From Nitrososphaeria archaeon (GTDB taxonomy: Archaea > Thermoproteota > Nitrososphaeria > Geothermarchaeales > JDFR-13), in NCBI GenBank assembly GCA_027078545.1, contig JALWXN010000004.1, positions 608,001-672,000 of the forward strand: a stretch of 64,000 bases of DNA, written 5' to 3'. Below the pieces are notes generated by a model. The model ran no database searches and was not told the DNA's origin. It saw only the letters and a program-made list of their open reading frames with translations. The translations under genes were made by a program, and so were the position numbers. This document shows positions 19,439 to 21,065 of the stretch, piece by piece. Position 1 is the stretch's first letter. Each line of letters begins with the position of its first letter.

Positions 19439-20144
19439 CCCTCCCGATCCTCTCGTAGATCGGTAGTGCGAGGGTCATCCCTATCAATACCTGCATGATG
19501 TTGAAGGGCATCTCGACATATGCTCCTGGCCCATATCCCAGTATCGTGTATTGGGCGGTGAAGTAGCCTATTACCATGACCATCCCGCCGACTAGTATAG
19601 CCGCTATCTCGACCGCCCTCTCAGGCTTCCTAAGGTATAGGTAGAGTCCCCAGCCCAGTAGGAGGAGGGATACCAGTGGCCATACTATGTATGAGAACTC
19701 GACCATGTATATGGAGCCGAGTAGGCTCAGCTCTGCTGATCCCACGTAGAACTGTACCCCTATGAGGGTGATCATGAGTGAGGAGCCGCCTACGAGGATC
19801 ATCCCGAGGGGCCGGGATATCCTTGTCCTACGCAGCCTCTGGACGAGTAGGCCCACTATGAAGCCCTCCAGCCCCTTAACCACGAGGGTTATGGGGGCGT
19901 AGTGGGTGTATCCCAGGTATATGTCTGCTAGTGCAGAGCCTATGCCACCGGCTATGGCGCCTACTATAGGCCCCCCGGTGAGTGCCGCTAGGTATACCCC
20001 GAACTCCCCAATGTTGAAGAACCCAGCCGTGGCCTGGATATAGACGGATATGACTACCGTCGATATGAATACCAGTGTCGTCATGAGGGCTGAGTAGGAT
20101 ATTAGGAATACCTCTGTAGCCTTGATCCCCCTGCTGAGGGCCAA
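19422..20144 (-). CDS. ECF transporter S component
   Basis: GFFNIGE, GGIGSALADI, APITLVVKGLEG, MVIGYF..NIMQ. Confidence 0.85.
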   Translation of the reverse strand: MALSRGIKATEVFLISYSALMTTLVFISTVVISVYIQATAGFFNIGEFGVYLAALTGGPIVGAIAGGIGSALADIYLGYTHYAPITLVVKGLEGFIVGLLVQRLRRTRISRPLGMILVGGSSLMITLIGVQFYVGSAELSLLGSIYMVEFSYIVWPLVSLLLLGWGLYLYLRKPERAVEIAAILVGGMVMVIGYFTAQYTILGYGPGAYVEMPFNIMQVLIGMTLALPIYERIGRVIETP

Positions 20145-20200: not shown

Positions 20201-20206
20201 TTTTAA
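20201..20206 (+). promoter_or_regulatory. Putative TATA box for the H/ACA sRNA
   Basis: TTTTAA ~26-31 nt upstream of the basal stem. Confidence 0.45.
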
Positions 20207-20231
20207 CGGCTGGGTGTATAAATATCTCTAT

Positions 20232-20305
20232 GGCCCCCGACTCACACTCCCAAGAGCCCCCAGACCATTGGGGTCGATGACTGGGAGCCGGTCTTGGGGG
20301 CCACA
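20232..20305 (+). ncRNA. Box H/ACA pseudouridylation guide sRNA (single hairpin); predicted target 23S rRNA U2593 (E. coli numbering)
   Basis: Basal stem GGCCCCCGA(20232-40)/UUGGGGGCC(20294-302); pocket CUCACA / CCGGUC; upper stem CUCCCA/UGGGAG; K-turn (AGAG ... C-GAU-GA); apical CCCCA/UGGGG; ACA at 20303-05, 15 nt from top of pocket; intergenic. Confidence 0.85.
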
Positions 20306-20360: not shown

Positions 20361-21065
20361 CTATATGAAGAAGGTCTTGGTCTCCCCGGGCTTTAGGATA
20401 ACTACCTTGGTTGAAGTGGCTGCCTCGACCTTCTCCTTGAACTCGTTGGGATCAGCCTTGATAAGGTCGAAGGTGTTGTAGTGCATCGGTATAACCGCCT
20501 CGGGCTTGATCAGCTTTACAGCCTCTACAGCCTCCGGTATACCCATTGTGAAGTGGCTTCCTATGGGTAGGAGTGCAAGCCTGACCTTGTAGAGCCTCCC
20601 TATAAGCTCCATCCCGGGGAATACCCCCGTGTCCCCAGCGTGGTATACGGAGAAGTTGGGGAACCTTATCACGAAGCCTGTAGGCGCGCCTATACCCATT
20701 GAGGAGTGTGTAGCCTCGACCTGTGTAATTAGTGTCTCGACCCCGTTCTTCTCGAACCTCCATGTACCACCTATATTCATCCCTATAAACTCCTTGGCGC
20801 CGCACTGCTCAGCTATATGGCTGGCCAGCTCGTAGATAGCGACTATCTTTGCCCCTGGATTATTCTTAAGTATCTCGCAGGAGTCCCCCACATGGTCCTG
20901 ATGGGCATGGGTGACCAGGAGTAGGTCTACATCCTTGATGTCGCCGGCCTTTATCGGGGAAGCCACTAGGAATGGGTCTATGACTATCCTCACCACGTCG
21001 TCATAGTTGAGTAGGAACGCCGCGTGGCCCAGCCATGTCACGTCGAGCTTCGCCATAGGCATCAC
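20361..21065 (-). CDS. Metallo-beta-lactamase-fold hydrolase (UPF0173-like)
   Basis: TWLGHA, IDPF, THAHQDH, YHAGDT, IPMHYNTF. Confidence 0.92.
   Translation of the reverse strand: MMPMAKLDVTWLGHAAFLLNYDDVVRIVIDPFLVASPIKAGDIKDVDLLLVTHAHQDHVGDSCEILKNNPGAKIVAIYELASHIAEQCGAKEFIGMNIGGTWRFEKNGVETLITQVEATHSSMGIGAPTGFVIRFPNFSVYHAGDTGVFPGMELIGRLYKVRLALLPIGSHFTMGIPEAVEAVKLIKPEAVIPMHYNTFDLIKADPNEFKEKVEAATSTKVVILKPGETKTFFI

What the first reader, a model, noticed from the sequence alone, without database searches (positions are those of the whole stretch)
20232..20305. Box H/ACA guide RNA predicted to pseudouridylate 23S rRNA helix 93 (U2593) beside the peptidyl-transferase centre
Seen: a 74-nt intergenic GC-rich hairpin with every archaeal H/ACA element. 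It has a 9-bp basal stem, an internal loop CUCACA/CCGGUC, a 6-bp upper stem, an L7Ae-type K-turn (strand ..A-G-A-G.. opposite ..C-GAU-GA-C..), an apical stem-loop, and ACA immediately 3' of the stem, 15 nt from the pocket top (canonical 14-16). A TTTTAA box lies upstream. The guide strands CGGUCU (20289-94) and CUCAC (20241-45) are complementary to 5'-AGACCG-UN-GUGAG-3'. Known (recalled from memory): archaeal 23S carries ...UAGACCGUCG(U/C)GAGACAG... at E. coli 2586-2603. Inference: Cbf5-Nop10-L7Ae-Gar1 uses this RNA to convert U2593, which pairs with A2600 near A2602, to pseudouridine. Protein-centred annotation would miss it. I cannot tell whether this guide or site is already catalogued.
Basis: partly seen in the sequence, partly recalled or inferred. 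Interest (0 to 1): 0.85.

Follow-up and report, generated by a model that had tools for sequence, protein, structure and literature searches.

The report
Pab91-type H/ACA pseudouridine guide RNA
This 74-base hairpin is very probably a real small guide RNA that directs one uridine-to-pseudouridine change beside the ribosome's catalytic centre, but it is the counterpart of a guide (Pab91) and a modified site already shown experimentally in Pyrococcus, so it is a solid new example of a known kind.

Summary
Window 20232-20305 (+) folds into the described hairpin: a 9-bp basal stem, a CUCACA/CCGGUC pocket, a 6-bp upper stem, a K-turn, and ACA 15 nt below the pocket top. The guide strands match this genome's own 23S rRNA exactly (AGACCG-UC-GUGAG). 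The target U2723 aligns with E. coli U2593.

It is not uncatalogued. Rfam's Pab91 model (RF02795) matches it end to end (34.5 bits, E 5e-5, below the gathering score of 71) with the same pocket letters. Pab91 guides Psi2685 in Pyrococcus abyssi 23S rRNA, which was shown by CMCT mapping and in vitro reconstitution. By spacing, that is the same nucleotide.

A covariance model built here finds orthologues in 9 of 13 genomes of the same family ("Candidatus Geothermarchaeota" MAGs). It also finds them in six further families of the phylum. In 25 sequences, 19 of 20 base pairs show compensatory changes. The guide strands, the K-turn GA motifs and ACA stay fixed.

Cbf5, Nop10, Gar1 and L7Ae genes are all present.

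No expression or pseudouridine data could be obtained.

Verdict: a new member of a known kind, of modest interest. The scan has found other archaeal H/ACA guides on other DNA, but aimed at other sites.

The parts
20202..20207 (+). TTTTAA, a TATA-like box at -30 to -25 from the first base of the hairpin
   Evidence: Read. A comparable (A/T)TTTAA-type box lies about 24-38 nt upstream of the orthologues in the same family. No transcription start was measured.
20232..20240 (+). Basal stem (H1), 5' strand GGCCCCCGA
   Evidence: Pairs with 20294-20302. In 25 orthologues, 7 of the 8 modelled pairs show compensatory changes and 99% of cells are paired.
20241..20246 (+). 5' strand of the pseudouridylation pocket. 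CUCAC (20241-45) is the 5' guide. A20246 stays unpaired next to H2.
   Evidence: Complementary to GUGAG at 23S positions 2725-2729. CUCAC is conserved in 24 of 25 orthologues. Pab91 has the same letters.
20247..20252 (+). Upper stem (H2), 5' strand CUCCCA
   Evidence: Forms 6 bp with 20282-20287. All 6 pairs show compensatory changes in the orthologues. The length fits the 5-6 bp rule of PMC2377435.
20253..20256 (+). K-turn, non-bulged strand A-G-A-G. G20254 and A20255 are placed for the tandem sheared G.A pairs.
   Evidence: Read from the sequence. A GAG/GAA motif is kept at this place in the orthologues. L7Ae binding was not tested.
20256..20275 (+). Apical (canonical) stem of the K-turn with its loop
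   Evidence: RNAfold pairs G20256-C20275 and 20258-62 with 20269-73. The sequence varies among orthologues with compensatory changes. Pab91 has a K-loop here instead.
20276..20281 (+). K-turn, bulged strand: 3-nt bulge GAU, then G20279-A20280, then C20281
   Evidence: GAUGA is kept here in 14 of 25 orthologues and AAUGA in 5 more; 23 of 25 keep an UGA core.
20282..20287 (+). Upper stem (H2), 3' strand UGGGAG
20288..20294 (+). 3' strand of the pocket. C20288 is unpaired. CGGUCU (20289-94) is the 3' guide. U20294 can also close the basal stem.
   Evidence: Complementary to AGACCG at 23S positions 2717-2722. CGGUC/YGGUC is conserved in the orthologues and in Pab91.
20294..20302 (+). Basal stem (H1), 3' strand UUGGGGGCC
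   Evidence: The G-U pairs form only on the + strand, and the reverse strand scores 19.9 against 98.8 bits.
20303..20305 (+). ACA box, directly 3' of the basal stem and 15 nt from the base of H2
   Evidence: Read. ACA is kept in 24 of 25 orthologues and is AAA in one. The distance fits the 14-15 nt rule.

Best explanation
Window 20232-20305 (+) encodes a single-hairpin archaeal box H/ACA guide sRNA. It is the functional counterpart, and probably the orthologue, of Pyrococcus Pab91.

Inferred mechanism, taken from the established archaeal H/ACA RNP:
- L7Ae binds the K-turn.
- Cbf5 binds the ACA box and basal stem through its PUA domain, together with Nop10 and Gar1.
- Nascent 23S rRNA pairs with both pocket strands: AGACCG with CGGUCU, and GUGAG with CUCAC.
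- This leaves U2723-C2724 unpaired at the three-way junction.
- Cbf5 then isomerises U2723 (E. coli U2593, in the stem of helix 93 next to A2602) to pseudouridine, before helix 93 folds.

Shown here: the anatomy, the exact and unique target match, homology to Pab91, covariation across the phylum, and the presence of the protein genes.

Inferred: transcription, RNP assembly and the modification itself.
For: - Structure and distances are canonical. H2 has 6 bp and ACA lies 15 nt from the pocket, within the limits set experimentally in P. abyssi.
- Rfam RF02795 (Pab91) matches over its whole length with identical pocket letters. E is 5e-5 in the local scan and 4.7e-5 for the whole genome.
- Pab91 guides Psi2685 in P. 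abyssi 23S rRNA, detected in vivo and reconstituted in vitro.
- P. abyssi 2672, 2685 and 2697 have the spacing of E. coli 2580, 2593 and 2605. Sites 2672 and 2697 are stated to be the RluC and RluB sites.
- Own 23S U2723 aligns with E. coli U2593.
- The 11-bp Watson-Crick site is unique in the assembly. It is rare for shuffled pockets, 7 of 2000.
- Orthologues were found in 9 of 13 family genomes and in six other families of the phylum.
- In 25 sequences, 19 of 20 pairs have compensatory changes. 95.5% of cells are paired, against 44-55% when the partners are slid.
- The guide strands, GA motifs and ACA are conserved.
- All five genomes checked carry the target sequence once.
- Cbf5 (373 bits), Nop10 (74.5), Gar1 (32.1) and L7Ae (101.7) all score above their cut-offs.
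Against: - There are no expression data.
- There is no pseudouridine mapping for this lineage.
- The Rfam score is below the family's gathering threshold (34.5 against 71 bits).
- One guide base on each side (A20246, C20288) stays unpaired next to H2. This does not weigh much, because Pab91 has the same arrangement.
- The covariation alignment was fitted to the model, which favours the structure.
- Predicted H/ACA targets are not always used in vivo. In P. abyssi, 6 of 21 predicted sites were shown to be unmodified.
Confidence: 0.85

Rival explanations
1. It is a real H/ACA guide, but its main or additional substrate in the cell is another uridine, for example 23S U408 or a site in another RNA. 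U2723 would then be unmodified or only weakly modified.
For: - A weaker bipartite site exists at 23S U408: 4+5 bp with one G-U.
- Single H/ACA motifs can guide several sites, and many predicted sites fail. Examples are P. abyssi and S. islandicus sR435 with eight targets.
Against: - The U2723 site is the only one with 11 Watson-Crick pairs.
- Both guide strands are conserved across the phylum together with this universally conserved target.
- The same pocket is experimentally active on this site in P. abyssi.
Confidence: 0.08
2. It is a conserved structured element with another role, such as a transcript-end or stability hairpin for the convergent MBL gene. Its resemblance to an H/ACA guide would be coincidental.
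For: - The hairpin lies 55 nt beyond the stop codon of the MBL gene, which is on the opposite strand.
- It stays next to that gene within the genus.
Against: - The G-U pairs form only on the + strand, and the model scores 98.8 bits on that strand against 19.9 on the other.
- The unpaired pocket letters, the asymmetric K-turn and the 3' ACA are the most conserved parts. A plain hairpin does not explain that.
- In more distant relatives the RNA is not next to the MBL gene. In L043 it lies 1.35 kb away.
- Archaeal termination uses oligo-T tracts, not hairpins (general knowledge).
Confidence: 0.04
3. It is a chance GC-rich hairpin with no function.
For: A loose H/ACA descriptor finds about as many hits in shuffled or reversed sequence as in the real genome.
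Against: - Orthologues occur in many genomes of several families, with compensatory changes in 19 of 20 pairs.
- It matches the Rfam Pab91 model.
- It has a unique, exact rRNA target.
Confidence: 0.01

Closest known systems
Pab91 / Pfu91 / Pho91 box H/ACA sRNA of Pyrococcus (Rfam RF02795; Muller et al. 2008, PMC2377435)
   Same: - It is also a single H/ACA hairpin.
- It has the same pocket letters: CUCAC on the 5' side and CGGUC on the 3' side.
- It has the same unpaired base on each side next to H2.
- It has the same number of layers between the pocket and the G.A pairs.
- ACA directly follows the basal stem.
- The target nucleotide is the same: P. abyssi Psi2685, E. coli U2593, own U2723.
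   Different: - The apex is a full K-turn with a 7-layer stem and a 6-nt loop. Pab91 has a compact K-loop, so the match carries 22 inserted bases against 4.
- The stems differ in sequence.
- The score is below Rfam's gathering threshold.
- The host is an uncultured member of Thermoproteota ("Candidatus Geothermarchaeota" by the names of its closest MAGs), not Thermococcales.
- Common descent cannot be separated from convergence on the same conserved target.
Other classic single-hairpin archaeal H/ACA sRNAs (Pab21/Pf1, Pab160/Pf9, S. islandicus sR115 and sR435)
   Same: They share the architecture and the same four-protein RNP.
   Different: Their pockets and targets differ. None of the six S. 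islandicus guides is assigned to this site.
2'-O-methylation of 23S U2733 in Sulfolobus islandicus (PMC11077068)
   Same: By numbering offset (U2597 = E. coli 2457), U2733 is the same helix 93 nucleotide. That nucleotide would therefore be modified in another branch of the phylum as well. The mapping is my inference.
   Different: The chemistry (ribose methylation) and the machinery differ. S. islandicus does not count this site among its pseudouridines.
Bacterial stand-alone synthases for neighbouring sites (RluC Psi2580, RluF Psi2604, RluB Psi2605)
   Same: They also make pseudouridines clustered around helices 90-93 of the peptidyl-transferase centre (E. coli sites from general knowledge).
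   Different: They are protein-only enzymes. E. coli has no pseudouridine at 2593 (general knowledge).

Membership tests
Archaeal box H/ACA guide sRNA | Basal helix H1 of at least 7 bp, followed directly by an ANA (usually ACA) box | tested here: met
   A 9-bp H1 (20232-40 with 20294-302) is followed by ACA at 20303-05. The criterion is from PMC2377435.
Archaeal box H/ACA guide sRNA | Internal loop whose two strands pair with a substrate on both sides of an unpaired 5'-UN-3' | tested here: met
   6+5 Watson-Crick pairs flank U2723-C2724 of the genome's own 23S rRNA. The site is unique in the assembly.
Archaeal box H/ACA guide sRNA | Upper helix H2 of 5-6 bp, and 14-15 nt between the pocket and ACA | tested here: met
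   H2 has 6 bp. The distance to ACA is 15 nt, or 14 if the A20246-C20288 layer is counted with H2.
Archaeal box H/ACA guide sRNA | K-turn or K-loop above H2 that binds L7Ae | tested here: inconclusive
   The sequence fits a K-turn: bulge GAU, then G20279-A20280 opposite A20255-G20254. The motif is conserved in the orthologues. The kink and L7Ae binding cannot be tested with these tools.
Archaeal box H/ACA guide sRNA | Host encodes Cbf5, Nop10, Gar1 and L7Ae | tested here: met
   All four score above the curated cut-offs.
Archaeal box H/ACA guide sRNA | Expressed as a discrete small RNA | not testable with these tools
The only support is a conserved TATA-like box about 25-35 nt upstream.
Archaeal box H/ACA guide sRNA | Pseudouridine present at the predicted target | not testable with these tools
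   No modification data exist for this lineage. The same site is modified in P. abyssi.
Rfam RF02795 (Pab91) | Score at or above the family's gathering threshold (71 bits) | tested here: not met
   The score is 34.5 bits with E 5e-5, over the full model length 1-57. The shortfall comes from the different stems and the 22-nt apical insertion.
Rfam RF02795 (Pab91) | Same guide strands and same rRNA target as Pab91 | tested here: met
   The pocket letters are identical in the cmscan alignment. The target is equivalent by spacing and by alignment to E. coli. The P. abyssi 23S sequence itself was not available to me.

The most novel reading that the evidence does not exclude
This RNA belongs to an ancient guide family shared by Thermococcales and many lineages of Thermoproteota. 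Current Rfam thresholds miss it outside Pyrococcus and Thermococcus. The same helix 93 nucleotide (E. coli U2593) would be pseudouridylated where this guide is present, but 2'-O-methylated in Sulfolobus. That would be a lineage-specific switch of modification type at one nucleotide beside A2602.
Probability: 0.35. Interest if true: 0.45.

Novelty: new member of a known kind. Interest (0 to 1): 0.3.

Why it matters
- It adds an unannotated RNA gene to a genome known only from metagenomes.
- It shows that the Pab91-type guide for the helix 93 uridine is widespread in Thermoproteota, not a Thermococcales speciality.
- The 25-sequence alignment made here could widen the Rfam family, so that annotation pipelines find these genes.
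- It predicts a specific, testable pseudouridine next to the peptidyl-transferase centre in lineages with no modification data.
- It does not reveal a new mechanism.

Tried and rejected
- **Rfam at gathering thresholds.** Nothing was found over the whole window. Only the permissive local scan showed Pab91.
- **BLAST of the 74 nt against 40 relatives.** Only the same-genus copy was found. Covariance models were needed.
- **Rfam Pab91 model over 60 relatives.** It picked up one orthologue from a second same-genus genome (L036). It also hit unrelated H/ACA hairpins with other pockets (L037, L039) and a probable false hit lacking ACA (L038).
It holds within the genus: the RNA lies directly after the MBL gene in L040 and L042. 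It loosens beyond the genus: 1.35 kb away in L043, and no hit on the short contig L041.
- **My own loose H/ACA descriptor.** It was not specific, with 7 real hits against 2-9 in controls, and I dropped it as evidence.
- **Targets for the two other H/ACA-like hairpins of the genome.** No clear single site was found.
- **Second 23S fragment on contig C3.** It is bacterial in type and irrelevant to the target call.

Full report
**What is there**

Window 20232-20305 on the + strand reads GGCCCCCGA-CUCACA-CUCCCA-AGAG-(apical stem-loop)-C-GAU-GA-C-UGGGAG-CCGGUC-UUGGGGGCC-ACA.

RNAfold gives the described hairpin as both minimum-energy and centroid structure. The energy is -38.1 kcal/mol with z -2.9, and 1 of 200 dinucleotide shuffles folds as well.

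The stretch is intergenic:
- The gene ending its upstream side at 20144 (- strand) is an ECF-type S component (PF07155, 90 bits).
- The gene whose stop lies at 20361 (- strand) is a metallo-beta-lactamase-fold protein.
- The short ORFs across the hairpin have no Pfam match.

This includes TTTTAA at 20202-07, which lies 25-30 nt before the first G.

**The target**

The genome's 23S rRNA gene lies at G000:C4:112285-115359 (-), outside the window. AGACCGUCGUGAG occurs in it exactly once, at positions 2717-2729, in the context GGGUUUAGACCGUCGUGAGACAGGUCGG. That is also the only occurrence in the whole assembly.

CGGUCU (20289-94) pairs with AGACCG, and CUCAC (20241-45) pairs with GUGAG. This leaves U2723-C2724 unpaired. 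A20246 and C20288 stay unpaired beside the upper stem.

An alignment with the annotated rrlH of E. coli K-12 puts U2723 opposite U2593. It also puts 2710 opposite 2580 and 2735 opposite 2605.

A scan of 16S and 23S rRNA with the H/ACA pairing rule finds no other site with 11 Watson-Crick pairs. The next best is 23S U408, with 4+5 pairs including one G-U. Only 7 of 2000 shuffled pockets find an equally good site.

**What it is related to**

Rfam at gathering thresholds reports nothing in the window. A permissive scan of 20100-20420 matches RF02795, Pab91, over the model's full length. The score is 34.5 bits with E 5e-5, against a gathering score of 71.

In that alignment:
- Both pocket strands are identical in letters.
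- One non-paired layer next to the upper stem is shared.
- ACA follows the basal stem in both.
- The only large difference is an apical insertion of 22 nt against 4 nt.

The match is also significant against the whole genome (E 4.7e-5).

Pab91 is one of the seven H/ACA sRNAs of Pyrococcus abyssi. It guides a single site, Psi2685 of 23S rRNA, which was detected in cellular rRNA and formed efficiently by reconstituted particles (PMC2377435).

The same paper states that the sites guided by Pab35 (2549, 2672, 2697) are those made by RluE, RluC and RluB in E. coli. From general knowledge those are 2457, 2580 and 2605. The spacing 2672-2685-2697 equals 2580-2593-2605, so Psi2685 is the nucleotide predicted here. 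I could not fetch the P. abyssi 23S sequence to check this letter by letter.

**Conservation**

The closest named relatives of the flanking MBL gene are MAGs labelled Candidatus Geothermarchaeota, at 99%, 79% and 59% protein identity.

Synteny:
- The RNA sits directly after the MBL gene in the two closest of these MAGs (99% and 79%).
- It lies 1.35 kb away in the third.

Results from the two covariance models:

| Model | Built from | Genomes sampled | Matches |
|---|---|---|---|
| R1 | 3 same-genus copies | 150 of the class | 9 of 13 in the family and 1 of 2 in family f10; none elsewhere, including 0 of 81 in family f6 |
| R2 | 12 matches | 150 of the phylum | f14 5/5, f24 5/5, f29 2/2, f33 1/1, f40 1/4; again none in f6, 0/19 |

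These are samples, and many genomes are incomplete. The result is therefore "not found in those searched", not "absent".

In the 25-sequence alignment:
- 24 of 25 keep CUCAC, often extended to GUCUCAC.
- Nearly all keep (N)CGGUC, the GAUGA/AAUGA strand of the K-turn and ACA.
- The stems differ freely.
- 19 of 20 modelled pairs have changes on both sides.
- 95.5% of cells are standard pairs, against 44-55% when partners are slid by 1-3 columns. None of 500 shuffles reaches the observed values.

The alignment was fitted to the model, which inflates these figures somewhat. The sequences are also related to one another. Even so, the compensatory changes are plain to the eye.

Many G-U pairs, and the much lower score of the reverse strand (19.9 against 98.8 bits), fix the + strand as the functional one.

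Five genomes that hold the guide, drawn from four families, each carry AGACCGTCGTGAGAC once.

A TTTAA-type box lies 24-38 nt upstream of the family's copies. This fits an archaeal promoter that starts transcription at or near the first base of the stem.

**Machinery**

The genome encodes all four RNP proteins above the curated cut-offs:

| Protein | Family | Score | Cut-off |
|---|---|---|---|
| Cbf5 | TIGR00425 | 372.8 bits | 238 |
| Nop10 | PF04135 | 74.5 bits | 27.2 |
| Gar1 | PF04410 | 32.1 bits | 29.3 |
| L7Ae | PF01248 | 101.7 bits | 22.1 |

**How it most likely works**

By analogy with the archaeal H/ACA RNP, as established knowledge summarised in PMC2377435 and PMC3726423:
- L7Ae binds the K-turn.
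- Cbf5, with Nop10 and Gar1, binds ACA, the basal stem and the pocket.
- The 3' guide-target helix stacks on the basal stem, and the 5' guide-target helix stacks on the upper stem.
- The unpaired U enters the Cbf5 active site.

In the mature ribosome U2593 pairs with A2600 in the stem of helix 93, one pair away from the bulged A2602 (E. coli secondary structure, general knowledge). The guide must therefore act on unfolded precursor rRNA.

The geometric rules measured in P. abyssi are an upper stem of 5-6 bp and 14-15 nt to ACA. Both are met, with 6 bp and 15 nt.

**Comparison and novelty**

This is the same kind of RNA, with the same pocket and the same target, as Pab91. It differs in three ways:
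- It has a full K-turn with an apical stem instead of a K-loop.
- Its stems differ in sequence.
- Its host lineage is different.

It fails Rfam's gathering threshold. I therefore call it a Pab91-type guide, a functional counterpart and probable orthologue, rather than a formal family member.

S. islandicus, whose pseudouridines have been fully mapped, has only three in 23S rRNA and none at this site. Its U2733 is reported as 2'-O-methylated (PMC11077068). With the offset given by U2597 = E. coli 2457, U2733 is the same nucleotide. This is my inference, and it assumes no insertion between the two positions. If it is right, the nucleotide is a modification site in several archaeal lineages, with different chemistry.

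No paper in the held library links Geothermarchaeota with H/ACA RNAs.

Earlier notes of this scan describe other archaeal H/ACA guides on other genomes, aimed at helix 69 or the 16S 790 loop. None describes this guide.

**Limits**

No pseudouridine data exist for the lineage.

A loose structural descriptor of my own was no better than chance and is not used as evidence.

**Verdict**

The RNA is a new member of a known kind. My confidence that it is a working guide for this uridine is about 0.85.

Noticed in passing
outside the window: G000:C4:104081-104154 (+), locus L148:1501-1574: A second H/ACA-like hairpin in the same genome. It has an 8-bp basal stem, a GAUGA K-turn strand and a 3' ACA. 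It scores 22.5 bits (E 0.08) with model R2 and folds at -37.3 kcal/mol. No single convincing rRNA target was found.
   Followed up: partly
outside the window: G000:C7:1280-1356 (-), locus L039: An H/ACA-like hairpin ending in ACA, on a 1.45-kb contig of 64% G+C. It scores 24.1 bits with the Pab91 model. The contig's composition differs from the main chromosome (52%), so it may come from another organism.
   Followed up: partly
outside the window: G000:C3 (2045 bases): This contig carries a 23S rRNA fragment of bacterial type, with helix 93 reading AGAACGUCGUGAG and 61% G+C. It has no megablast match to the genome's own 23S rRNA. It is probably a mis-binned contig.
   Followed up: partly
outside the window: G000:C4:112285-115359 (-) and C4:194063-195561 (+): The 23S and 16S rRNA genes are about 79 kb apart on opposite strands, so they are not in one operon.
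   Followed up: no
L037:1501-1560 (-), genome G006, same family: A compact K-loop H/ACA hairpin with a different pocket (UUUCCCG / GCGGCCA). It is therefore a different guide, and its target was not sought.
   Followed up: no
window 20219-20226: A second AT-rich box, TATAAATA, lies only 7-14 nt before the hairpin. That is too close to serve as the hairpin's TATA box. It is conserved in the same-genus copy, and its role is unknown.
   Followed up: no
window 20361-21065 (-): Beyond four close archaeal MAGs, the nearest relatives of the MBL-fold protein in the genome collection are mostly bacterial (Flavobacteriaceae, Bacillota, at 36-41% identity). This hints at gene transfer.
   Followed up: no
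literature: S. islandicus 23S U2733 (PMC11077068): This nucleotide is reported as 2'-O-methylated, with a raised CMC signal but a low stop ratio. By numbering offset it is the same helix 93 nucleotide as the target predicted here.
   Followed up: partly
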